A stretch of DNA of 64,000 nt from an endosymbiont of Galathealinum brachiosum. Lineage in GTDB: Bacteria; Pseudomonadota; Gammaproteobacteria; SZUA-229. Shown piece by piece: positions 54,021 through 64,000 of the stretch. A program made the translations under genes and the position numbers. Location: positions 3,850 to 67,849 of the forward strand of contig QFXC01000002.1 in NCBI GenBank assembly GCA_003349885.1. The letters are read 5' to 3'. Each line of letters opens with the position of its first letter. Within the stretch, counting starts at the first letter, position 1. The notes under the pieces were generated by a model. It did not search any database. It had not been told where the DNA came from and saw only the letters and a list, made by a program, of their open reading frames with translations.

Positions 54021-54818
54021 TTATACATCTACAACTAAACTTACATCAAACCCAACTACATTCTCACCCGGATACCCCGCCTGATTTGAAAGAATCCGTG
54101 TATCACTAATAACCCTGTCTAAATTTGCATGAGTATGCCCGTAAATCCACAGGTTAATATCAAACATTTCAATCAACGAGCTTAAGTCTGAGTGAAAAGC
54201 CGCAGTCAACTCATCTACCGGAAATGCCGGATGCTGACAAACAGGATGAGGCCCATGATGAGTAACAATAACGGTTTTACCCTTAAACGGCTCAGACAGT
54301 TTTTGCTTCAACCAGTTTAATTCGATATTGTGTTGTGTGAGTGCATGGTGAGGTTTAAATTTTAGATAACGTCCATCTGAATTGAAACGTATTTTTCGAT
54401 GATCGGCCAACACATTTTCTATACTCAGCATTACCCGCTCTTTTGGTATAGCCGTGAATGCTTTGTAATCTGTCCATAACGTAGCACCCAGAAACCGAAC
54501 ATCATCTACAATGCATTCACCATAATCTAAACATGAGACCTGTGTACCTTCACAAAGCTTTTGTATTTTATCTTTCAGGTGATTAAACTCATGCCCATAA
54601 TATTCATGGTTACCTGATACATAAATAATTTTTTTAGATAACCGCTCAGCTTCAGAAATAGCCCACTCTACCCCATGAACACCTGTATCAATATCACCCG
54701 CCAATACAATAATATCTGTATCGGTTTCTGGTAAACGACCAGACCATTTATGCAAAGGGTCAAACTTACCACTTCTTAAAAACTCATTATGTAAATCACT
54801 GAGAATATGTATTTTCAT
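54021..54818 (-). CDS. calcineurin-like metallophosphoesterase
   Basis: MKIHILSDLHNEF, GDIDTGVHG, GNHEYYG, GHTH motifs. Confidence 0.7.
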   Translation of the reverse strand: MKIHILSDLHNEFLRSGKFDPLHKWSGRLPETDTDIIVLAGDIDTGVHGVEWAISEAERLSKKIIYVSGNHEYYGHEFNHLKDKIQKLCEGTQVSCLDYGECIVDDVRFLGATLWTDYKAFTAIPKERVMLSIENVLADHRKIRFNSDGRYLKFKPHHALTQHNIELNWLKQKLSEPFKGKTVIVTHHGPHPVCQHPAFPVDELTAAFHSDLSSLIEMFDINLWIYGHTHANLDRVISDTRILSNQAGYPGENVVGFDVSLVVDV

Positions 54819-54953: not shown

Positions 54954-55385
54954 CTACTTATTAATAAATAACTGATTGATTTCATCAGATTTAAGAATAG
55001 CCGCTAATTTATACGCTTGCCCTGTTTCCTGAATCAATACTTCAGCAGGTATACCTAAGCCTTGATGTAACTTACGAATCATACTTAAACTTAATGGTCG
55101 TTTTCCATTAAGCACTTCTGATACTTTTGATGCAGAACCAAAATATTTAAGCATATCTTTTTGCTGCAACCCCTGCTGCTCCATACGAAATTTAATAGCT
55201 TCAAGAGGCACAGGTTTATCGACAGGAAACTGTTCACGCTCATAGTGTTCAATTAGCACTGACAACACTTCCAGCTCATTCTCTTCATTAGAACCAGATG
55301 CAGGATTCAAATGCATTAATGCCATCAATCGTTCAACAGCCAATTTATGCTCAGCTTTAGACTTAATTACTTTTAGAATAGACAT
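54954..55385 (-). CDS. higA: HigA antitoxin (E. coli YgjM type, C-terminal HTH)
   Basis: GSASKVSEVLNGKRPLSLSMIRKLHQGLGIPAEVLI parallels E. coli HigA GSKSMVSRVLSGKRKLTLEHAKKLATRFGISPALFI. Confidence 0.8.
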   Translation of the reverse strand: MSILKVIKSKAEHKLAVERLMALMHLNPASGSNEENELEVLSVLIEHYEREQFPVDKPVPLEAIKFRMEQQGLQQKDMLKYFGSASKVSEVLNGKRPLSLSMIRKLHQGLGIPAEVLIQETGQAYKLAAILKSDEINQLFINK

Positions 55386-55396
55386 TAACCATCTCC

Positions 55397-55681
55397 TTAA
55401 AACTTTTGCTTATCATACTCAGCATGCGTACCAACCCATTCAATAACGACGATTCCATTCTGATACCTCACTTTCACTACAAGGCGATAGTGATTACCTT
55501 TAATATTAAAAATTACCCGGTTATCTGCCAGAAAATCAGCGGAGTTATACCTGTTTTTAATATCCTGCGGTGTAACCCATTGAGCTCTGTTCGCCTCATC
55601 AAACCATGCGTCTAATGCGCCTTTGCCGTGATTATGCTTTTTTGAGAACTTATCAAGTATGTCACGTCCTATGACTCTCAT
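55397..55681 (-). CDS. higB: HigB toxin (RelE/ParE superfamily, E. coli YgjN type)
   Basis: NRVIFNIKGNHYRLVVKVRYQNGIVVIEWVGTHAEYD parallels E. coli HigB HYVFNVGGNELRVVAMVFFESQKCYIREVMTHKEYD; toxin-first order. Confidence 0.8.
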   Translation of the reverse strand: MRVIGRDILDKFSKKHNHGKGALDAWFDEANRAQWVTPQDIKNRYNSADFLADNRVIFNIKGNHYRLVVKVRYQNGIVVIEWVGTHAEYDKQKF

Positions 55682-55735: not shown

Positions 55736-56870
55736 ATTAAATATAATTTATGTCCTTAGATTTAACTTATTTATAACCTCTAAGCTAACATATTGATATA
55801 TATGGATTATATTTCAAAGTTAGCGATATAAATCTTCAGCTTTAGCAAGTGAACCGTATATAAGCACCAGTACTATTTGCTCATTTACTGACGTAATGCT
55901 GCCTTAATTACATCTACAATGGCAAACGTTTTTCGAATCATATTTAACAACTCACTGTAGGAGTTATCTTCAGATGACGATACAAAAGCGATGCGAAGCG
56001 AGCCATGTAACTTACACAACACACACCGCTTAGTAACAACCATCACAACTCATAACAAACCCCAGTCTCTTTAACCTCCCCACTCCCATCACCACCAACA
56101 TCATCACGCACCAACTGCTGCTCAATAAACTCATCAAGCGCATCACCATGCACCAGATAAACCCCTTTACGAAGCCGATACAAAAACCGCGTGCGACTCA
56201 TTTCAACCCGCCCTGGCTCAATAGTTGAAGCCGGTAAAAATGAATTATTGTAATCAGTAGTCACATCAGAAAAATAAGCCTTAAACTGTTTAAGCGTAAC
56301 CACCACACCCCTGTCTTCAATAGAACCCAACTCCCCCTTAACCACCGCATCTAAAAACCGCTGCTTTAAAGTGATGATAAATCCTTATCAAATTTAATTA
56401 CCAAACTCACAACACACAACTCGCACCTAAACCCAACGCTTCACTACTCGTTCCCACGGTCCCCCTTGGTAACGCATACCAAACTCAAAGTACGATACAA
56501 ACCCAAAACATCATTCCTTCTCCTTACCACCCACCTGATTCATCTCAAAAATTCCACTAATAATTTCCCCCATCACCCACAAATAATTATCAACCTGCTC
56601 ATGAAACACATCAGGGTGAACATCATCACCACAACACACAGGTTTAAACACAGGCGGGTTATCAAGCAAATGAACAAGATGCCCCGTATAACGAATCAAG
56701 CGCACCTTATACTGAGTATCATTAAACCTGGTGGGTAAACCTTGCTCATCATCCACATCAAAAGAATGAAACCGCAACGGAATTTCAACCAGCTTAGCTG
56801 GCTTAGAAGAAGACTTTTCAAATTGATCATCACACATAAAAACACTCCCTATTAAAAGTTAACCATCTCT

Positions 56871-56947
56871 TGTAGGTGCTCCTTCAGGTGCACATCTTTT
56901 GTAGTTTCATAACCATTATGTTTAGTGCACCTAAAGGAGCACCTACA
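56871..56947. repeat. inverted pair of repeat D 23-mers forming a long hairpin
   Basis: tgtaggtgctccttcaggtgcac ...31 nt... gtgcacctaaaggagcacctaca. Confidence 0.6.
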
Positions 56948-57711
56948 AAGTAAAACGTCATACCTGCGAAGGCAGGTACCCAGCGACTTAAAATCAAATA
57001 TAAAAGGAAACCAGAACCCCAAACGAGGCTCCAGCAAGTTCAACCACCCATGACTAATACACACTGCCAAAACACAAAACCCACCCACAGCAAAACCTCA
57101 ACAACACACAATCTCGCAGTCGAATTAAAGCAGGCCTGATCAAAAAACGAACAATAACGCCCGTGGTTTCCAATAAACCGAACAGATAAAGTGAAATCAA
57201 AGAATAAAAGCGCCGAAACTCACCTGAGAATACAGAAAAATGCACAGGTAAAAACGCAGGGTGTGAAGAAAAATAACGGATTGCCGAAAAAAAACTACCG
57301 GCAATAGGGTGTCCTAGCTTAGAATGTGTCTCAGCCATATTCAACTCGTTATAGTTGGTTGTGGTTAGCAGGCTTTCGGTGTTACAGCACCTTGGGTCTG
57401 CGATTTTTTATTTTATAAAGTTAGTTAGCCGATAGATCTCTCCTGTTGTTTTCTGTAGTTATTAAAACCACATATATTAAAAATAGATAATGAAGCGCAC
57501 GTTGTTAATGCTCGCTTATTGAGTGTATGCAAGGTGGAAGATAGTTGTCAAATTAATATTTTATAGAACTACAGATGTGATTTTATACTTTTCAGACTAC
57601 TACTTAAAATCATTTATATTTATAAGCATTAAGAAAATAAACATGAAGCAACTAACGTACTACTTGAAGCTATCATGACCCTATATATTTATTTACTTAC
57701 ACTAAAACAGG

Positions 57712-57996
57712 TTAAGTTATATTATGACTTGAAGGCAATGAGACTTGATAACGAGAGCCAACTTTGAAATATTCAATACGCCCTTCATTAACTAACTTTT
57801 CCATCATTACCGACATCAACCAGCCTTTCTGACCATCTTCTGTAGGACTATAAGACAGCAAATCAAGACCAAGATCTTTTTTTAGAACAGCGGCTTTAAC
57901 TGAAGCTTGACCATCATTAGATTGCAATCTAATATAATCTATAATTACGTCACCAATAGAATTAAGATGATTTTCTATATTTTTCTTATGATTCAC
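57712..57996 (-). CDS. small hypothetical protein downstream of the 3-gene cassette
   Basis: ORF only; 188 bp downstream of the REC gene on the same strand. Confidence 0.3.
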   Translation of the reverse strand: MNHKKNIENHLNSIGDVIIDYIRLQSNDGQASVKAAVLKKDLGLDLLSYSPTEDGQKGWLMSVMMEKLVNEGRIEYFKVGSRYQVSLPSSHNIT

Positions 57997-58184
57997 TCAA
58001 CACCTTCCAATCCTCTTCATTCGATTTATACCATCCATTTATTACTTGCTATTTATAGAACAATGCTCAACACATCCTATTATTAGGAATAATTTCGTAC
58101 TGACAATTGATAATGGCATATTGAAATTTAAAACCATAATAATTTTCATTCTGAACTGCCTGATAAATTGTATTCTAATTAGAT

Positions 58185-59090
58185 TTAGTTTATAAACTTT
58201 TTAAAATCCGACTGAATTTTTAATAGCTGCATTCGAAGTCGCTTAAACTCATCAAAATTATATTCTTTTTCATCACCACCATGTGAATGCAGAATCAATT
58301 TACCTTCATCTGTTAGCTTAGCATGTTGATGTGCCAATTTATTCCTTTCTGATTGTGTTTTACATAAATTGGAACCTTCAGACAAAAACTCGTGCTGAGC
58401 CGATCCTTCTTCAAAGAGCTTTTTGAAGGCAACACGAATAACTTGAAATTCAGTCAAAAAAGGATCCTTAATTGCATCTTCTACACATGTTATTTTTTCA
58501 ACTTTTACGGATTGATTAAAAACTTTATCTTTTAATTTCTCCTTTATATATTCTAGGAGCTCAGACCGCTTAATAGGATCGAGTGCTGTACATGCCTTGT
58601 TAAAGGAATCTCTCATTTTTACATCTGTGTGACTCATAGATGACATAACCACACCACGGATATTATTAATATCTGATATTTTTTTTATATGATCTTCAAT
58701 TAAAGCCTCAACTTGATCATTAAATATTTCTCTATCAATAATAAAGACTCCATCAACCTTAGAATCATAAAGTTTTTTTCTAAGGACATTTTGCTTGGTT
58801 CCACTATAGAATATTAAGTCAGTGTAAATCTGTCTACGCAACTCCTTCGCTATAGTAAGCCCATCCTCACTATCACCGCCCAGATCATAGTCAAATATAA
58901 TTAAATCATAAGGATTATAATTAGATAATGTTGATGCAAGCTTTCGAATATCATCATAACTAATTTTTGTTTCTTTTTCTATTTCAGGAATAAACCCGTG
59001 AGAGGAGACAAAATCCTCAACATTAGAAACTGATTCTTTAACGTTTTCAAACTGATCTTCAAACCATAATATTTTATATGTTAATTTCAT
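58185..59090 (-). CDS. receiver (REC) domain protein with unrecognised ~180-aa C-terminal domain (cassette gene C)
   Basis: KILWFEDQ (acidic pair E11/D12), DLIIFDYDLGGD (candidate phospho-Asp D66/D68), IFYSGTK (S/T + K); overlaps upstream gene by 4 nt. Confidence 0.6.
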   Translation of the reverse strand: MKLTYKILWFEDQFENVKESVSNVEDFVSSHGFIPEIEKETKISYDDIRKLASTLSNYNPYDLIIFDYDLGGDSEDGLTIAKELRRQIYTDLIFYSGTKQNVLRKKLYDSKVDGVFIIDREIFNDQVEALIEDHIKKISDINNIRGVVMSSMSHTDVKMRDSFNKACTALDPIKRSELLEYIKEKLKDKVFNQSVKVEKITCVEDAIKDPFLTEFQVIRVAFKKLFEEGSAQHEFLSEGSNLCKTQSERNKLAHQHAKLTDEGKLILHSHGGDEKEYNFDEFKRLRMQLLKIQSDFKKFIN

Positions 59091-61462
59091 AATTTTTTTA
59101 CATTTATAGTTAACCCTAACCCTCTATCAGGTTGATTATCTGATAGAGATATTTCACCACCCATTTTTTCTAACTGTTTTCTTATATGATATAAACCCAA
59201 ACCAGAGCCTCTTGTGGTCGTATATCCTTTTTCAAATATTCTCTGTGGTTCGATTACTTTACTATCTAAACCGTTACCATTGTCAACCACTTCAATATTT
59301 AACACATTATTTAAAGCAGAAGAAATAATAAAATCAACCCTTGAAGCACGTGCTTTATTCGAATTATTCACAATATTATCAAGAATAACACCCAATTCTA
59401 TTGGTGTGAAATTTGTAACAAATCCTTTTGTATTATTAATAACATTTATATTAATACCATGGTGATATGATGTAGTTATTTTATCTAGATATTGTTCAAT
59501 ATGTTGACATATATCAGCATGTACTTTTTCTGAATCTAACTTATAGTTAGCTAAAGTAGCGAACCTAGAGGTGGTGATTATTTTTTCAATTAACACCAAT
59601 AGCTCATCAAGAATATCTCTAACTGTATCACTAGAAATTTCTTCAGTTTTATTTAAAGAGAAATACTTCCTAAAGGCATTTTTTAGTTTTTGTCTATTTT
59701 CAACAGCGTAAATGATAATTTGGTGCATAAAGCTCTCAAGCTGATCTTTATCACGTGATTCACTGGATGTTAAATATAAACTCCTCTTTTTCTCGTCTTC
59801 GTAAGCCGTGCTAATTTTTTCTTTTTCAGTCTCAGCAGCAACCCTTCCTTGGCGTTCAGAACTCTCTCTGTGTTCAGCCTTTATTCGCGCTTCAATTTCT
59901 TGCTCTGCTATCTTTAAAGCGTCATCTTTTTCTTTCTCTAATTTCTCATACTCTCTGCGTGCAGATGAAACAGCTTTTTTTAAATTCACATCATTTGAGT
60001 CTTTAGCAAGTGACTCTAAATTATTAATTGATTTTTCAAAATATACTGATTTTTCATTTAATACTGAAACTATATCTTTATTATATTCAAGAAGATCGAG
60101 GTTATCAGACTTTGAAAGACTTTCAATCAATTTGATGATTTTCGTTCTATTTTCATCAAGTCCAAGTCGCTCAGCAGTCTCATGTATTTTATCTAACTTA
60201 TCTTTCCAATTCACGCCCACCACATAGCTTTCGAAACGTCTAAGGCATTTATTTTTAACACACTCCTGCAATTGATCTGACGCGATAGTTTCTACCAAAC
60301 CTTTATCTCGACTAGAAGATTCTTTAAATTTGAATTCTTCTCCAGCAATATCAACTCGACCCAGTATATCTCGTGTACCTAGATAACGACTGTATCCTTG
60401 TTGTTTTCGAACATCGATTTTCCAATAATCATTACCTGGCTCACCAACAGGAAATACTCTAAAGCCATTACGAAACAAAAACAAAGAACCAAAACTAACT
60501 ACAGACAAAGCCATTTGTTTTTTAAATGTTAATTTTGCAGAATTATTCAAATAAAACAACTGACAATTAAAACCGCTATCTAACAATTCATCGTATTCAG
60601 GTATTTTTTCTCTAATTTTATATATCAACGTACCACGATCAATCAGATCACTGTAAAGCCAACCATCAGACTTAAGATAAACATGCAACCATGTAGTTTT
60701 TTCCCTTAAAGTTTCAAGAATGTAGTTTTTAACAATTCCATTTACTAATTCTGCCTGTCTATTTTTATTACCCAACTTCTTTTTTTCTTTTAAATCACCA
60801 CTTTCTTCCAAACTACTATGCAAGAAAACATCTAAGCTGTTGCCATCTTCACCAAATGGATTAATTAACTTAGTAAGATGTCTTTTAAGTGATAATAATT
60901 TTTTTCTGTCCCATGATTTTTTTTCTCTTAAATTTGAAATCTCTACTACTACACCACTACTAATAGCGTCAACTTCTTTAGGAAAATCAAAGTCTTCAGA
61001 TTCATTATGAAAAACAGCGATATCGCCAAATAACTCAGTAGAATCTTTTTCAAAACTCCCCCAGTCGACATCTAAAATATCAACATGATCCATACCCTTA
61101 GTTTTTGCCTGAATCCTAAGCTCACCACCTAATCTATCACATGAAAAACGACCTACTCCCTTGTTTCCAGCATATGTTCTATTTTTATCTTGATCCTCTG
61201 TCCCATCTCTTTTTGCTGAATAAGCTACAAAAAGCCATTTATTAGTAAAATCATCAAAATCCATTCCTTTACCATTATCAATCACATAAATTTTTTCGAC
61301 ATCTCTTCCATCGTATTTAAATACTATATCCACACGGCTAGCATTTGCATCAAATGAATTCTTTACCAACTCAAATATTGCAACGTAGTCATTAGTAATA
61401 AGATCACGTCCAATAACTGATTTTAAAGAAGAACTTACTTTAAAATTCAATAACTCTGTCAA
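59087..61462 (-). CDS. dual GHKL protein: N-terminal MORC-like HATPase_c_3 + coiled-coil + C-terminal histidine-kinase-type HATPase_c (cassette gene B)
   Basis: N-term: IFELVKNSFDANA (N-box), VIDNGKGMD (G1), SAKRDG..GNKGVGRFS (G2/G3); C-term: ILDNIVNNSNKA (N-box), VVDNGNGLD (G1), GSGLGLYHIRK (G2); central E/K/R-rich coiled coil with candidate His in LESFMHQIIIYAVEN. Confidence 0.7.
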   Translation of the reverse strand: MTELLNFKVSSSLKSVIGRDLITNDYVAIFELVKNSFDANASRVDIVFKYDGRDVEKIYVIDNGKGMDFDDFTNKWLFVAYSAKRDGTEDQDKNRTYAGNKGVGRFSCDRLGGELRIQAKTKGMDHVDILDVDWGSFEKDSTELFGDIAVFHNESEDFDFPKEVDAISSGVVVEISNLREKKSWDRKKLLSLKRHLTKLINPFGEDGNSLDVFLHSSLEESGDLKEKKKLGNKNRQAELVNGIVKNYILETLREKTTWLHVYLKSDGWLYSDLIDRGTLIYKIREKIPEYDELLDSGFNCQLFYLNNSAKLTFKKQMALSVVSFGSLFLFRNGFRVFPVGEPGNDYWKIDVRKQQGYSRYLGTRDILGRVDIAGEEFKFKESSSRDKGLVETIASDQLQECVKNKCLRRFESYVVGVNWKDKLDKIHETAERLGLDENRTKIIKLIESLSKSDNLDLLEYNKDIVSVLNEKSVYFEKSINNLESLAKDSNDVNLKKAVSSARREYEKLEKEKDDALKIAEQEIEARIKAEHRESSERQGRVAAETEKEKISTAYEDEKKRSLYLTSSESRDKDQLESFMHQIIIYAVENRQKLKNAFRKYFSLNKTEEISSDTVRDILDELLVLIEKIITTSRFATLANYKLDSEKVHADICQHIEQYLDKITTSYHHGININVINNTKGFVTNFTPIELGVILDNIVNNSNKARASRVDFIISSALNNVLNIEVVDNGNGLDSKVIEPQRIFEKGYTTTRGSGLGLYHIRKQLEKMGGEISLSDNQPDRGLGLTINVKKL

Positions 61463-61498
61463 CTTATATACTCCTTAGGTTTCTGTTTGGATTTTTCA

Positions 61499-63967
61499 TC
61501 ATTTAGTATTGTCTTTTTTAATAACTTCGAAAAATGGATTAGCACGTATAACTTGTCCATCCACACCAAGCGTCTTATACAAACACTCATGACATTCCAA
61601 AGATTTAATCGAATCAACAACATCTGAATTAACAGCCGTCAACCCTATACCTTCAAGCTCTTTTATCGTTACATTTGGTACTTTATGTACAAACCAGGTT
61701 AGAAGTGGCTCCAAATAATTCTCATGCGAAGTCTTAAAATGAGATAAGTACTGTGAAGCAAGCAATACTCCAACCCCAAACTCTCTACCCTGCAACAAAA
61801 TCTTTTTCAAAACATCAAATTCATATTGCATGATGTTATCAGCTTCATCAACAAGCAACATAGTATCAACAAATCTCAATTTAGGATCTTCACCAATAAA
61901 TGGCTTTTTCTCAATTCTAAGCATATGCTCATAAAACAAGTTCAAAAATATAACAACGAGCATATTCTTTGTTCTATCATCTTGCCCTATTTCTGATAAA
62001 TCGATGACTACTACACCTGTAAGAAACTCTGAAAATGGAATAACATCCTTACTATCTGATACAAAGTAACCACCATCTACTAGATCATCCATAATATTGT
62101 ATGGTGTATCTGGTGACTTAATTGCTTCTTTATAACAATCAAAAACGTCATTAATTGTTGGTGCTATTTTTCCATTAGCATTTGTTATTTCGTACGACTC
62201 TTTAACTGCAGCCTTTATGCGTGAACGCTGAACAGGCCCTATACCTGGATAAATTTTATCTAATACATCTATGAAGAATTTTGTTCTCTCAAGCCATGCC
62301 CTGCCTTTTTGAGAGCTATCTCGAATATCAAACAAATTTAACGGTATATCAAAAGGTGAAACTACTTTTGCACCTGTTGCTTTAACAAAGTCATCTTTTG
62401 AATAGTCTCGCTTGTAGTCAAATATTAATATATTTGGCCTTTTACCCCTATTCATATCAGGTTTAGCACCCATTTGTTGAACAAGCGCTTGGATTAACTG
62501 TGTTTTGCCTGTTCCTAAATCACCTACAATACCGACATTAAGCTGATTTAACGCTGTATTACCAGGAAAAAAGAACAATTCTTCATTAGTAAACTTATTT
62601 ACTGTTTCACCAACACTAAATTTAATACCTTCTGGTGATGGATCACTAGTAATTATTTCATCTTTATCTGTTTCTTTTGCCTTTTCAACTTCTGCTTCTA
62701 CTTTGGCTACAGAATCATCTACTAAGATTTCTTTTTCCGTGGGTTCACCCGTTTCTACTTCGGGCAATACTGTTGTCTCTACTTTTGTTTCTACATCAGG
62801 TGATATTTCTGGATTTGTTTTTGGTTCAGTCTTTGGCTTTATATCTAATGTATCTTTCGAGTCTAGCTCAGGTAATAGCTGCCAATTACCCATCTTAGAG
62901 TTTATAGATTTAGAAAAAGCACTATCACATCTAGCTAACACTGAAAAAGCTTCAGCATGTGTTAGATGCATGGTTTCATTAAAACCATCTTTATCTATAT
63001 CTTGTAGCGATTCATTCTCTGAGCTATCTATGACAATAAGCCTTCCTCGTGTATCTATATCTATATCCAATTCATTATTTGCAATTGATTTTAATATAGA
63101 TGAATGCTGCTGCGCCCATTCTTTCTGATTCATGAACTGTTCGAGCTGACCGTATACTCTAAAACCATAATCTAGCATGGTTGCTAGAAGATTACGCCAT
63201 GCGATACCCCACAAATCAAATTCTTTTGCTTTTGTTTGTATATCATGAAGAAATTCTGAAAAATGACTAGCCTGACACAAAGCTGCCTCTCGCTCATTAG
63301 GTGACATGGTGCCACCTCTTGCTTTAACTTCTACAGGCGTTATACGCATTTGAATTGGCTCACCTGAAACAAACTGCATACTCAAAACTAAAAGATCTGG
63401 ACGCTCACCATATTTAAAGCCTATAGCTGTGCGTAAATCATCGAAGTGTTTCTGGAATGGATCAGCAGAGATAATCAGGTTTAATGTATCATCATCCTTA
63501 ACTGGTAATAACCCTGTTGCTGTAGCACCCCGCTCAAAGTCAGATTGAAAAATACGAAGCGCAGTTAACATTCCAATTTCTCCAAGTGACATTGAGCCAC
63601 CTGCAGTTAAACGCTTTAGTGTTGGCATACCCCTACGTGATATTTCTTCTAATATTTCAGAAATTCTTTCATCAGTTAATTCACTATTCTCACCTAATAA
63701 TATAAGAGCTGATCTAACAGCTTGCAGCATTCCAGGTGATTCTTTTGCCAGTAGGTAATAACCACTATTCTCACCTGCACGACGCGCATATGATGGTAAC
63801 TCATAATCCCAAAGATAAGCCTTTTCTGTGGAACCAAAAAAACAGGCTGCATCAACATCTGTTGATGACAATGCTGTATAACGTGAACCGCCAACAACAT
63901 CTGCTAACTTAGCCATATCAGGTGCAAAAACATAACTGTCAAAATCTTCTTTACATTGACGCTCCAC
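61499..63967 (-). CDS. PD-(D/E)xK-like nuclease domain + low-complexity linker + HerA/FtsK-like P-loop ATPase (cassette gene A); N-terminus probably beyond window edge
   Basis: RPDLLVLS...ITPVEVKARGG (PD..E.K); linker KPKTEPKTNPEISPDVETKVETTVLPEVETGEPTEKE; Walker A GIVGDLGTGKTQL, HerA-like ILIFDYKRDY, Walker B MLLVDEADN; called start is GTG and frame stays open to position 64000. Confidence 0.65.
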   Translation of the reverse strand: MERQCKEDFDSYVFAPDMAKLADVVGGSRYTALSSTDVDAACFFGSTEKAYLWDYELPSYARRAGENSGYYLLAKESPGMLQAVRSALILLGENSELTDERISEILEEISRRGMPTLKRLTAGGSMSLGEIGMLTALRIFQSDFERGATATGLLPVKDDDTLNLIISADPFQKHFDDLRTAIGFKYGERPDLLVLSMQFVSGEPIQMRITPVEVKARGGTMSPNEREAALCQASHFSEFLHDIQTKAKEFDLWGIAWRNLLATMLDYGFRVYGQLEQFMNQKEWAQQHSSILKSIANNELDIDIDTRGRLIVIDSSENESLQDIDKDGFNETMHLTHAEAFSVLARCDSAFSKSINSKMGNWQLLPELDSKDTLDIKPKTEPKTNPEISPDVETKVETTVLPEVETGEPTEKEILVDDSVAKVEAEVEKAKETDKDEIITSDPSPEGIKFSVGETVNKFTNEELFFFPGNTALNQLNVGIVGDLGTGKTQLIQALVQQMGAKPDMNRGKRPNILIFDYKRDYSKDDFVKATGAKVVSPFDIPLNLFDIRDSSQKGRAWLERTKFFIDVLDKIYPGIGPVQRSRIKAAVKESYEITNANGKIAPTINDVFDCYKEAIKSPDTPYNIMDDLVDGGYFVSDSKDVIPFSEFLTGVVVIDLSEIGQDDRTKNMLVVIFLNLFYEHMLRIEKKPFIGEDPKLRFVDTMLLVDEADNIMQYEFDVLKKILLQGREFGVGVLLASQYLSHFKTSHENYLEPLLTWFVHKVPNVTIKELEGIGLTAVNSDVVDSIKSLECHECLYKTLGVDGQVIRANPFFEVIKKDNTK

Positions 63968-64000
63968 TTCATCAACACAACTTAATAATTTGCCTGTTAT

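What the first reader, a model, noticed from the sequence alone, without database searches (positions are those of the whole stretch)
59087..61462. Gene B: two different GHKL ATPase modules in one polypeptide, MORC-like plus histidine-kinase-like
The N-terminal 140 aa has all four Bergerat motifs in HATPase_c_3 (MORC/paraMORC) style: ELVKNSFDANA, IDNGKGMD, SAKRDG and GNKGVGRFS. The last ~110 aa form a canonical sensor-kinase catalytic domain with N, G1 and G2 boxes (ILDNIVNNSNKA, VVDNGNGLD, GSGLGLYHI). Between them lies about 250 aa of predicted coiled coil (EKLEKEKDDALKIAEQEIEARIKAEHRESSERQ...). This could act as a DHp-like dimerisation/phosphotransfer element. The only nearby His in an H-box-like context is LESFMHQIII. 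A prokaryotic MORC-type ATPase wired to a two-component output has not, to my knowledge, been described.
Basis: partly seen in the sequence, partly recalled or inferred. Interest (0 to 1): 0.8.

Follow-up and report, generated by a model that had tools for sequence, protein, structure and literature searches.

The report
MORC-like kinase paired with predicted RNase regulator
Gene B really does join a MORC-like ATPase to a histidine-kinase core, but the design was described by computer analysis in 2021 and a related system was shown to stop phages in 2025, so this is a new member of a known, little-studied family of defence-type signalling pairs that sit beside DNA methylases.

Summary
Gene B (59087-61462, minus strand, 791 aa) has an N-terminal HATPase_c_3 module (E 1.3e-21) and a C-terminal HATPase_c module (E 7e-20). 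Between them lie a coiled coil and a DHp-like helical hairpin carrying His580, which is invariant in 164 of 164 homologues.

The novelty claim is wrong. Bellieny-Rabelo et al. 2021 described this architecture, its receiver-like partner and its link to C5 DNA methylases. The Ambrosia system (bioRxiv 2025) has a homologous double-GHKL protein, AbrB, and is validated against phages.

In my census of 163 related loci:
- Gene C follows B wherever there is room, usually with a 4-bp overlap.
- A C5 methylase flanks the pair in 153 of 154 complete loci.

I add two points.
- Gene C is a true receiver domain fused to a helical domain whose only invariant motif is RNxxAH. That domain gives consistent sub-threshold HEPN matches, so the output is probably an RNase, not a transcription factor.
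- In the window the methylase slot is taken by gene A. Gene A is the large ATPase of a separate methylase-linked three-gene module, and its frame runs off the window.

Verdict: a new member of a known kind, of moderate interest.

The parts
59087..61462 (-). Gene B, 791 aa: a soluble paraMORC-type GHKL ATPase fused to a histidine-kinase core (DHp + CA).
60863..61462 (-). B aa 1-200: the N-terminal Bergerat-fold ATPase (HATPase_c_3). It carries catalytic Glu31, Mg-binding Asn35, D62xGxG, and the lid G99xKGxGR105.
   Evidence: Pfam E 1.3e-21. NCBIfam resemblance to the N-terminus of BbrUII/HgiDII restriction enzymes, and to MutL, MzaB and sacsin. These residues are invariant in 162-164 of 164 sequences. 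The region is 31% identical to the Ambrosia AbrB N-terminus, E 6e-24.
60053..60862 (-). B aa 201-470: an alpha/beta middle domain following the GHKL module. It may be a transducer or clamp domain like those of MORC, SMCHD1 and Hsp90.
59771..60040 (-). B aa 475-564: coiled-coil linker. A short helix (aa 475-488) leads into one long helix (aa 492-564).
   Evidence: AF2 DSSP. Its length varies between homologues, with insertions of up to about 45 aa in the Vibrio, Pectobacterium and Enterovibrio homologues.
59552..59749 (-). B aa 572-637: a DHp-like helical hairpin with the predicted phospho-accepting His580 (codon 59723-59725). The motif is [LF]-x-H-Q-[VI]-x-I-Y-A.
59090..59524 (-). B aa 647-791: the histidine-kinase catalytic (CA) domain with N, G1, F and G2 boxes.
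   Evidence: Pfam HATPase_c E 7.1e-20. NCBIfam matches to the C-termini of DcuS, PrsK, VirA, PmrB and EnvZ. Box residues are invariant.
58185..59090 (-). Gene C, 301 aa: the response-regulator partner. It is translationally coupled to B through an ATGA stop/start overlap.
   Evidence: C is adjacent to B in 157 of the 163 loci counted, which covers all 154 loci with room downstream of B. AF2 model has pLDDT 87.7.
58731..59090 (-). C aa 1-120: the receiver (REC) domain. Residues are E11-D12, acceptor Asp67 (codon 58890-58892), Ser96, and Arg120 in place of the usual Lys.
58188..58730 (-). C aa 121-301: an all-helical output domain with an invariant R249-N-x-x-A-H254 motif (58329-58346). It is predicted to be a HEPN-type RNase.
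   Evidence: R249 and H254 are present in 155 of 155 sequences and N250 in 150 of 155. Among 44 diverse C-terminal domains, the only Pfam families hit by more than one member are HEPN_RiboL-PSP (6, best 3e-5), HEPN_Swt1 (5) and Abi_2 (4, best 1e-5). One match spans aa 35-182 of a 185-aa slice. All of these matches are below Pfam gathering scores.
61499..64000 (-). Gene A, at least 833 aa, with a reading frame open to the window end. It is the FtsK/HerA-type ATPase (DndH C-terminal-like) of a separate, C5-methylase-linked three-gene F-G-H module. It is a neighbour of B-C, not a conserved part of it.
   Evidence: PADLOC DndH match covers only the C-terminal half, E 4e-80. The frame is open to position 64000. 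A aligns to residues 1039-1843 of the 1843-aa L035 protein and to 1021-1811 of the S. fredii protein.

Best explanation
**What B and C are**
- Genes B and C are a cytoplasmic two-component pair of the paraMORC-kinase family (the HEF_HK / Response_reg_2 family of Bellieny-Rabelo et al. 2021).
- In nearly all genomes this pair forms a three-gene cassette with a C5 DNA cytosine methyltransferase.

**Proposed mechanism**
1. (Inferred) The N-terminal MORC-like GHKL ATPase and its middle domain act as the input. By analogy with MORC, MutL and paraMORC proteins in restriction-modification contexts, this is most likely an ATP-driven clamp that probes DNA, with the partner methylase marking self DNA.
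2. (Inferred) The signal passes along the coiled coil to the DHp-CA core.
3. (Inferred from invariant residues and fold) The CA domain phosphorylates His580.
4. (Inferred. The acceptor Asp is needed for defence in the related Ambrosia system.) The phosphoryl group moves to Asp67 of gene C.
5. (Inferred) Phosphorylation of the receiver switches on C's own C-terminal domain. I predict this domain to be a HEPN-type RNase (invariant RNxxAH). The result would be RNA cleavage and growth arrest or abortive infection, not a transcriptional response.

**The window's copy**
- The pair has no methylase gene beside it.
- It lies directly downstream of gene A, the ATPase of a different methylase-linked F-G-H module.
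- Both effector modules therefore probably share one methylase located beyond the window end (inferred).
For: **Architecture**
- Both GHKL modules are significant.
- All ATP-binding and catalytic residues of both modules, and His580, are invariant in 164 homologues.
- The AF2 model shows a helical hairpin plus CA domain.

**Partner gene C**
- C is the next gene in 157 of 163 loci, which is every locus with room. Most show a 4-bp overlap, and the window has an ATGA overlap.
- C's N-terminal domain has the REC fold and an invariant Asp67.

**Output domain**
- Rx4H is the only invariant motif in the C-terminal domain.
- 16 member-hits fall on four HEPN-clan Pfam families. No other family is hit by more than one member.

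**Methylase link**
- A C5 methylase is adjacent in 153 of 154 complete loci.

**Prior description and experimental precedent**
- The family was described in PMC8011034.
- Ambrosia AbrB has the same Pfam composition and its N-terminus is homologous (E 6e-24, profile E 1.6e-41).
- AbrB N40A, which aligns with B's Asn35, abolishes phage defence. So does AbrC D60A, the acceptor Asp.
- The paraMORC3-type GHKL-nuclease VcSduA also defends against phage and needs its GHKL Glu (PMC12137116).
Against: **No biochemistry**
- There is no biochemical data for this family.

**Departures from canonical two-component residues**
- The His is followed by Gln (159 of 164), not the acidic residue used by HisKA kinases (PMC8011034 reports Glu/Asp there).
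- The receiver has Arg where CheY-like receivers have Lys.
- C gives weak Pfam hits to cREC_REC, and its Pectobacterium homologue hits iREC (inactive receiver).

**Weak support for HEPN**
- HEPN matches are all below gathering thresholds.
- The window protein itself gives none.
- A profile search of PDB sequences found no HEPN protein.
- I could not fold-search the C-terminal domain alone.

**Unsupported steps**
- No evidence here bears on what B senses.
- No methylase is present in the window, so the shared-methylase idea is untested.

**Points against a defence role**
- PADLOC recognises neither B nor C as part of a named system.
- Full-length B relatives are almost absent from plasmid and phage collections.

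**A different published model**
- The Ambrosia authors favour a transcriptional model for their system.
Confidence: 0.6

Rival explanations
1. B-C is a regulatory two-component system. It controls transcription of neighbouring restriction-modification genes and is not itself an effector. This is the speculation of Bellieny-Rabelo et al. 2021 and the working model for Ambrosia.
For: - PMC8011034 proposes signalling that controls R-M systems.
- In Ambrosia, reporter genes placed in the cluster are induced on infection, and AbrC is said to carry a winged-helix domain.
Against: - Gene C gives no HTH or winged-helix match above noise. The one such hit, DUF2089-HTH at E 0.0056, falls inside the REC domain.
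- Its C-terminal domain's only invariant feature is an Rx4H motif with HEPN-family affinities.
- The conserved cassette is only methylase + B + C, with no conserved nuclease gene to regulate.
- AbrC (209 aa) is not detectably similar to C and lacks this domain.
Confidence: 0.15
2. No phosphorelay takes place. B is an ATP-driven restriction-type machine in which both GHKL modules only bind and hydrolyse ATP. C is a pseudo-receiver adaptor or effector subunit that binds B.
For: - The His is followed by Gln, not Asp or Glu.
- The REC domain has Arg120 instead of Lys.
- There are weak Pfam hits to cREC_REC (E 0.002) and iREC (E 0.025).
- The N-terminal GHKL is closest to that of BbrUII/HgiDII-family restriction enzymes.
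Against: - His580 (164 of 164) and Asp67 (155 of 155) are strictly invariant, as are E/D11, D12 and S96.
- The His-to-N-box spacing (116 aa) and the DHp-CA fold match true kinases.
- Mutating the acceptor Asp abolishes defence in Ambrosia.
Confidence: 0.15
3. The cassette is mainly a selfish addiction module that kills cells after loss of the methylase, and not an anti-phage system.
For: - The link to a C5 methylase is tight.
- Addiction behaviour of R-M systems is discussed in PMC8011034.
Against: - Full-length relatives are nearly absent from 72,556 plasmid records, which is odd for an addiction element.
- The sibling system Ambrosia protects against phage.
- This reading is not exclusive of the best explanation.
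Confidence: 0.1

Closest known systems
HEF_HK / Response_reg_2 two-component-like family (Bellieny-Rabelo, Pretorius & Moleleki, Genome Biol Evol 2021; PMC8011034)
   Same: - It has the same three-part kinase-like protein: HATPase_c_3, a DHp-like His region and HATPase_c. This is their 'group 1', 174 of 222 proteins.
- It is soluble.
- An adjacent receiver-like gene has no other Pfam domain.
- A C5 methylase lies next door.
- It is derived from paraMORCs.
- A Pectobacterium homologue (P0036) is 53% identical over the full length and sits in the same triad.
   Different: - The Pfam copy used here returns no PF19191 or PF19192 hit for the window proteins or for the Pectobacterium homologues.
- The paper reports an acidic residue after the His. 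I find Gln in 159 of 164 sequences.
- The paper does not assign the receiver protein's C-terminal domain. I predict HEPN.
- The window copy has no adjacent methylase.
Ambrosia defence system, AbrR/A/B/C/D (bioRxiv 10.1101/2025.09.30.679545)
   Same: - AbrB (747 aa) carries HATPase_c_3 + HATPase_c with coiled-coil matches.
- Its N-terminal 200 aa are homologous to B (31% identity, E 6e-24).
- It pairs with a receiver protein and a DNA methylase.
- Both the N-terminal GHKL Asn and the receiver Asp are needed for phage defence.
   Different: - Ambrosia has an N6-adenine methylase, a separate HNH nuclease and an XRE regulator.
- AbrC is a 209-aa receiver without the Rx4H domain and is not detectably similar to C.
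- The authors' model is transcriptional control.
paraMORC families of restriction-modification loci (Iyer, Abhiman & Aravind 2008; PMC2292703), including paraMORC3/VcSduA Shedu (PMC12137116)
   Same: - They have an N-terminal GHKL with intact motifs followed by a further domain.
- They sit beside cytosine methylases and Vsr.
- Their effector modules are swappable (RE-fold nuclease, TIR).
- The GHKL catalytic Glu is needed for defence in VcSduA.
   Different: - None of paraMORC1-5 as described has a histidine-kinase core or a receiver partner.
- In those families the effector is fused to the ATPase. It is not reached by phosphotransfer.
Detocs (defensive two-component system)
   Same: From my own knowledge, it follows the same concept: a kinase senses infection and phosphorylates a receiver fused to an effector.
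   Different: - PADLOC finds no Detocs model matching B or C.
- From my own knowledge, Detocs has a different sensor, an extra buffer receiver and a nucleosidase effector, and it is not linked to a methylase.
BbrUII/HgiDII-family type II restriction enzymes
   Same: This is the best NCBIfam match for B's N-terminal 180 aa (E 5.8e-19).
   Different: - The match covers only the GHKL module. The score of 68 bits is far below the family cutoff of 550.
- The rest of B is a kinase core, not a nuclease.

Membership tests
HEF_HK / Response_reg_2 family (PMC8011034) | N-terminal HATPase_c_3 and C-terminal HATPase_c in one soluble protein | tested here: met
   Pfam E 1.3e-21 and 7.1e-20. The same pair is precomputed for all 120 listed homologues.
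HEF_HK / Response_reg_2 family (PMC8011034) | Match to the Pfam models HEF_HK (PF19191) and Response_reg_2 (PF19192) | tested here: inconclusive
   There is no hit at E <= 10 for B or C. There is also none for the Pectobacterium versatile homologues P0036 and P0147, which come from the genus in which the family was defined. Either the models are absent from this Pfam copy or they are very narrow.
HEF_HK / Response_reg_2 family (PMC8011034) | DHp-like two-helix region with a conserved His next to the CA domain | tested here: met
HEF_HK / Response_reg_2 family (PMC8011034) | Adjacent receiver-like gene with conserved acceptor Asp | tested here: met
   Adjacent in 157 of 163 loci and in the window. 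REC fold. Asp67 is present in 155 of 155 sequences.
HEF_HK / Response_reg_2 family (PMC8011034) | Neighbouring C5 DNA methylase | tested here: not met
   The family as a whole meets this in 153 of 154 complete loci. The window holds no C5 methylase (tblastn with 84 queries). One may lie beyond position 64000. This feature is frequent in the family but not strictly defining.
Canonical HisKA-type sensor histidine kinase | H box with His followed by Asp/Glu, and a match to a HisKA-type Pfam model | tested here: not met
   The motif is H-Q. No HisKA, HisKA_2, HisKA_3 or HWE_HK hit at E <= 10.
Canonical HisKA-type sensor histidine kinase | Autophosphorylation on His and transfer to the receiver Asp | not testable with these tools
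   Needs biochemistry.
MORC family proper (Iyer et al. 2008) | GHKL + S5 domain with the MORC-specific motif | tested here: inconclusive
Ambrosia (AbrR-AbrA-AbrB-AbrC-AbrD) | Five-gene set: XRE regulator, N6 methylase, double-GHKL protein, receiver, HNH nuclease | tested here: not met
   Only the AbrB-like protein is shared. There is no HNH gene, N6 methylase or dedicated XRE next to B-C. AbrC is not similar to C.
HEPN superfamily (C-terminal domain of gene C) | All-helical domain with a conserved Rx4-6H motif | tested here: met
   R249-N-K-L-A-H254. R and H are present in 155 of 155 sequences. The AF2 model is helical with one beta-hairpin insert.
HEPN superfamily (C-terminal domain of gene C) | Significant match to a HEPN family model or fold | tested here: inconclusive
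   HEPN_RiboL-PSP, HEPN_Swt1, Abi_2 and HEPN_Cthe2314 are hit by 16 member-matches (best 1e-5 to 3e-5). All are below gathering scores. The PDB profile search was negative. A fold search of the domain alone was not possible.
DndFGH restriction module (gene A) | DndH full-length match with DndF and DndG partners and a dnd modification cluster | tested here: not met
   Only the C-terminal ATPase matches DndH models. The partner proteins give no PADLOC or Pfam hit. Relatives sit beside C5 methylases and Vsr, not dnd genes.

The most novel reading that the evidence does not exclude
The methylase-B-C cassette is a distinct kind of restriction-modification-like immunity.
- A MORC-like ATPase reads the methylation state of DNA.
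- The system does not cut that DNA. It sends a His-Asp phosphoryl signal that directly switches on a HEPN RNase fused to the receiver.
- The window shows that this signalling module can be plugged in behind a second, unrelated effector module (F-G-H). One methylase would then guard two different responses.
Probability: 0.35. Interest if true: 0.65.

Novelty: new member of a known kind. Interest (0 to 1): 0.35.

Why it matters
- The family is widespread. About 500 of 185,579 species representatives matched on two peptide patterns alone.
- Its gene order is very regular.
- No biochemical work has been done on this family, and no member of the C5-methylase-B-C branch has been tested experimentally. 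The related Ambrosia cluster has been tested genetically.
- If the predicted chain holds (DNA-probing GHKL ATPase, then His-Asp relay, then HEPN RNase), it would connect three themes usually studied apart: MORC-type ATPases, two-component signalling, and abortive-infection RNases.
- It would also give a clean system for asking what prokaryotic MORC-like ATPases sense.
- For this window specifically, the finding is an ordinary member of that family in an unusual neighbourhood.

Tried and rejected
**Attempts to see the source contig beyond position 64000**
- The exact-protein look-up for B found nothing on record.
- The source genome was not among the GTDB representatives. The best locus was 61% identical.
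- As a result I could not see the region upstream of gene A.

**Searches that gave nothing for B or C**
- PADLOC gave no system-level assignment. It hit only the N-terminal GHKL, under a type II REase model and MzaB.
- Pfam at E <= 10 gave no HisKA-type, HEF_HK or Response_reg_2 hit.

**Attempts to identify C's C-terminal domain**
- A profile search of PDB sequences gave only coiled-coil or repeat noise.

**The idea that gene A is a conserved third component**
- I rejected this idea.
- A-like proteins occur in only 1 of 163 B-C loci.
- They have their own conserved methylase-F-G-H operon elsewhere.

**The idea that A marks a phosphorothioate (Dnd) link**
- I rejected this idea.
- Only the ATPase half resembles DndH.
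- The partners and contexts are 5mC-type.

**Other negative scans**
- The tRNA and Rfam scans of the window found nothing.
- The promoter scan gave no more sites than shuffled sequence, 34 against 34.3.
- The phage and plasmid collections gave only partial matches.

**Literature checks**
- The HEPN survey (PMC3710099) does not describe a REC-HEPN protein in this context.
- The CoCoNuT paper does not either.
- A further search for such a protein found nothing.


Full report
**1.

The minus-strand ORF 59087-61462 encodes 791 aa. It starts at a TTG with an AAGGAG ribosome-binding site 8 nt upstream. Pfam finds two GHKL modules:
- HATPase_c_3 at residues 27-143 (E 1.3e-21).
- HATPase_c at residues 688-786 (E 7.1e-20).

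NCBIfam splits the protein the same way. The N-terminal 180 residues resemble the N-terminus of BbrUII/HgiDII-family restriction enzymes, MutL, MzaB and sacsin. The C-terminal 150-190 residues resemble the catalytic ends of DcuS, PrsK, VirA, PmrB and EnvZ.

An AlphaFold2 model (mean pLDDT 74) gives this layout:
- GHKL fold, aa 1-200.
- An alpha/beta middle domain, aa 200-470.
- A short helix (aa 475-488) and one very long helix (aa 492-564).
- A helical hairpin, aa 572-602 and 611-637.
- A CA domain, aa 647-791.

**2. It is a large, conserved family, not a one-off.**

A search of 5.8 billion proteins returned more than 100 full-length relatives at 45-62% identity. All carry the same two Pfam domains and are 775-846 aa long. 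They come from Vibrio, Enterovibrio, Pectobacterium, Serratia, Desulfonema, Thiomicrorhabdus and many metagenomes. The 100% match names the source as a MAG, 'endosymbiont of Galathealinum brachiosum'.

I collected 80 species-representative loci and 80 metagenome loci. Across 164 sequences:
- His580 is invariant, and it is followed by Gln in 159.
- Every nucleotide-binding residue of both GHKL modules is invariant or nearly so.
- This includes the catalytic Glu31 and Mg-binding Asn35 of the N-terminal module.

Both modules therefore look active.

**3. Gene C is the constant partner, and it is a receiver.**

Gene C (58185-59090) starts with an ATG that overlaps B's TGA. Of the 163 loci counted (all fetched loci except two near-duplicates of L002 and L004):
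- A C homologue directly follows B in 157. That covers every locus with room, and most show a 4-bp overlap.
- A C5 DNA methyltransferase is adjacent in 153 of 154 loci with sequence on both sides. It lies upstream on the same strand in 60 and downstream and convergent in 91.

- The acceptor Asp67 is invariant.
- Position 11 is E or D in 154 of 155 sequences, and position 12 is D in 133 and N in 21.
- Ser96 is kept in 154 of 155.
- The usual Lys is replaced by Arg120 (Lys in 7).

**4. This has been described before.**

Bellieny-Rabelo, Pretorius and Moleleki (2021, PMC8011034) started from a Pectobacterium gene with both HATPase domains and its unannotated neighbour. Their main points were:
- They defined HEF_HK (PF19191, DHp-like) and Response_reg_2 (PF19192).
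- They found 91.6% linkage across 644 regions.
- They found C5 methylases upstream.
- They proposed that the family branched from the paraMORCs of Iyer et al. 2008.

The Pectobacterium versatile homologue in my set is 53% identical to B over its full length and lies in the same methylase-B-C triad.

Two mismatches should be recorded:
- The Pfam copy available here gives no PF19191 or PF19192 hit, even for the Pectobacterium proteins. I could not confirm membership through those models.
- The paper reports an acidic residue after the His, whereas I find Gln.

A 2025 preprint (10.1101/2025.09.30.679545) validates a related five-gene system, Ambrosia:
- AbrB (747 aa) carries HATPase_c_3 + HATPase_c.
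- The first 200 residues of AbrB align to B at 31% identity (E 6e-24; profile E 1.6e-41).
- AbrB N40A, which corresponds to B's Asn35, abolishes phage defence.
- AbrC D60A, the receiver Asp, also abolishes phage defence.

Ambrosia differs in the rest of its parts. It has an N6 methylase, an HNH nuclease, an XRE regulator and a short receiver protein that is not detectably similar to C.

**5. What I can add: the likely output.**

The 2021 paper reports no other known domain in the receiver protein and does not mention HEPN or RNases.

In 44 diverse C-terminal domains (mean identity 22%), the only invariant residues are R and H of an R-N-x-x-A-H motif. An R-G pair and one further Arg are nearly invariant.

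I scanned those 44 domains one by one against Pfam. Only three families are hit by more than one member:
- HEPN_RiboL-PSP: 6 members, best E 3e-5.
- HEPN_Swt1: 5 members.
- Abi_2: 4 members, best E 1e-5.

HEPN_Cthe2314 is hit once. In one member the RiboL-PSP match spans residues 35-182 of the 185-residue slice, which includes the motif.

All of these matches are below Pfam's thresholds. The window protein itself gives none, and a profile search of PDB sequences was negative. I therefore rate the HEPN assignment at about 0.7.

If it is right, the receiver controls its own RNase domain. This fits the absence of any HTH in C and the absence of a conserved nuclease gene in the triad.

**6. The window's neighbourhood is unusual, and gene A is not part of the pair.**

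No C5 methylase is detectable anywhere in the window (tblastn with 84 methylase queries). Gene A ends 36 bp upstream of B's start.

What gene A is:
- Its reading frame is open right up to position 64000, so it is cut by the window edge.
- It matches only the C-terminal ATPase of DndH models.
- It aligns to residues 1039-1843 of an 1843-aa protein in L035 (Massilia).

L035 is the single locus of 154 that also lacks a methylase. There the A-like gene lies convergent to B-C.

Relatives of A occur on Sinorhizobium, Rhizobium and Pseudoalteromonas plasmids and in metagenome contigs. They lie in a conserved operon:
- a C5 methylase;
- a ~700-aa protein;
- a ~510-aa protein;
- the large ATPase, either whole or split as 1089 + 757 aa;
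- often Vsr.

The two genes upstream of the L035 ATPase are 54-57% identical to the Sinorhizobium ones. None of these partners matches DndF, DndG or any Pfam family.

So gene A belongs to a second, separate 5mC-linked module. The simplest reading is that in the window and in L035 the two effector modules share one methylase lying beyond the sequence I could see. That is an inference from two loci.

**7. Wider relatives.**

A Stenotrophomonas plasmid carries a C5 methylase followed by a 711-aa double-GHKL relative. B's residues 1-487 and its CA domain match that relative separately. A 212-aa receiver-like ORF follows it. The design therefore seems to vary in its output end.

Full-length B relatives are otherwise nearly absent from 72,556 plasmid and 50,697 phage records.

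**8. Verdict.**

The two-component reading is reasonable and supported by conservation, fold and a mutational precedent in a sibling system. The novelty claim fails.

This is a new member of a known but biochemically untouched family. It has two modest additions: a predicted HEPN output, and a composite arrangement with an F-G-H module.

My confidence in each step of the mechanism is:

| Step | Confidence |
|---|---|
| Family membership | high |
| Phosphorelay | about 0.75 |
| HEPN output | about 0.7 |
| Defence role | about 0.7 |
| DNA-methylation sensing | about 0.4 |

Noticed in passing
window 61499-64000 (minus strand); L166 4054-14908; L167 3059-13926; L168 3828-14236; L170; L171: Gene A belongs to a conserved, apparently unnamed module. 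It consists of a C5 methylase, a ~700-aa protein, a ~510-aa protein and a 1600-1850-aa protein with a DndH-like FtsK/HerA ATPase at its C-terminus (sometimes split 1089 + 757 aa), often with Vsr. The two smaller proteins match nothing in Pfam or PADLOC. It looks like a DndFGH-style restriction module keyed to 5mC, not to phosphorothioate.
   Followed up: partly
window 63967-64000: The ORF list shows gene A as a complete 822-aa ORF starting at a GTG. The frame has no stop codon up to the window edge, so the gene is truncated by the window.
   Followed up: yes
L035 9947-22340 (Massilia sp.): This is the only one of 154 complete B-C loci without an adjacent methylase. It has the same F-G-H module convergent to B-C, and it lies beside TraG/T4SS coupling-protein and LPD7 genes, so it is probably on a conjugative element.
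   Followed up: partly
L169 4751-10116 (Stenotrophomonas rhizophila plasmid): A shorter (711 aa) double-GHKL relative lies directly after a C5 methylase. It is followed by a 212-aa receiver-like ORF (DD...D...S pattern), a 226-aa ORF, and a convergent 216-aa ORF with CxxC...CPKC cysteine pairs. None of these is annotated in the plasmid table. It may be a variant with a different output.
   Followed up: partly
window 54954-55681 (minus strand): A HigB toxin (Pfam E 7e-31) and its HTH_3 antitoxin lie 2.5 kb downstream of gene C. A calcineurin-like phosphoesterase lies at 54021-54818.
   Followed up: partly
window 56350-57700: This ~1.3-kb stretch has only short overlapping ORFs with no family matches. 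It holds two terminator-like hairpins (57010-57035, 57147-57164) and lies between the HigBA pair and a 94-aa ORF (57712-57996) of unknown function just downstream of gene C. It may be decayed sequence at an island boundary.
   Followed up: no
window 58001-62000: G+C is 0.31-0.32 across genes C and B and the start of A, against 0.33-0.43 elsewhere in the window. This is consistent with horizontally acquired DNA.
   Followed up: no
B residue 581 and C residue 120, across 164 and 155 homologues: The phospho-His is followed by Gln (159 of 164), not the Asp/Glu reported in the 2021 paper and used by HisKA kinases. The receiver has Arg (148 of 155) where CheY-type receivers have Lys. Both are unusual for an active phosphorelay and remain unexplained.
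   Followed up: partly
Pfam library used: PF19191 (HEF_HK) and PF19192 (Response_reg_2) never appear, even for Pectobacterium homologues at E <= 10. A 2026 preprint still lists PF19191 as a Pfam HisKA-type entry. The models may be narrow or missing from this copy.
   Followed up: partly
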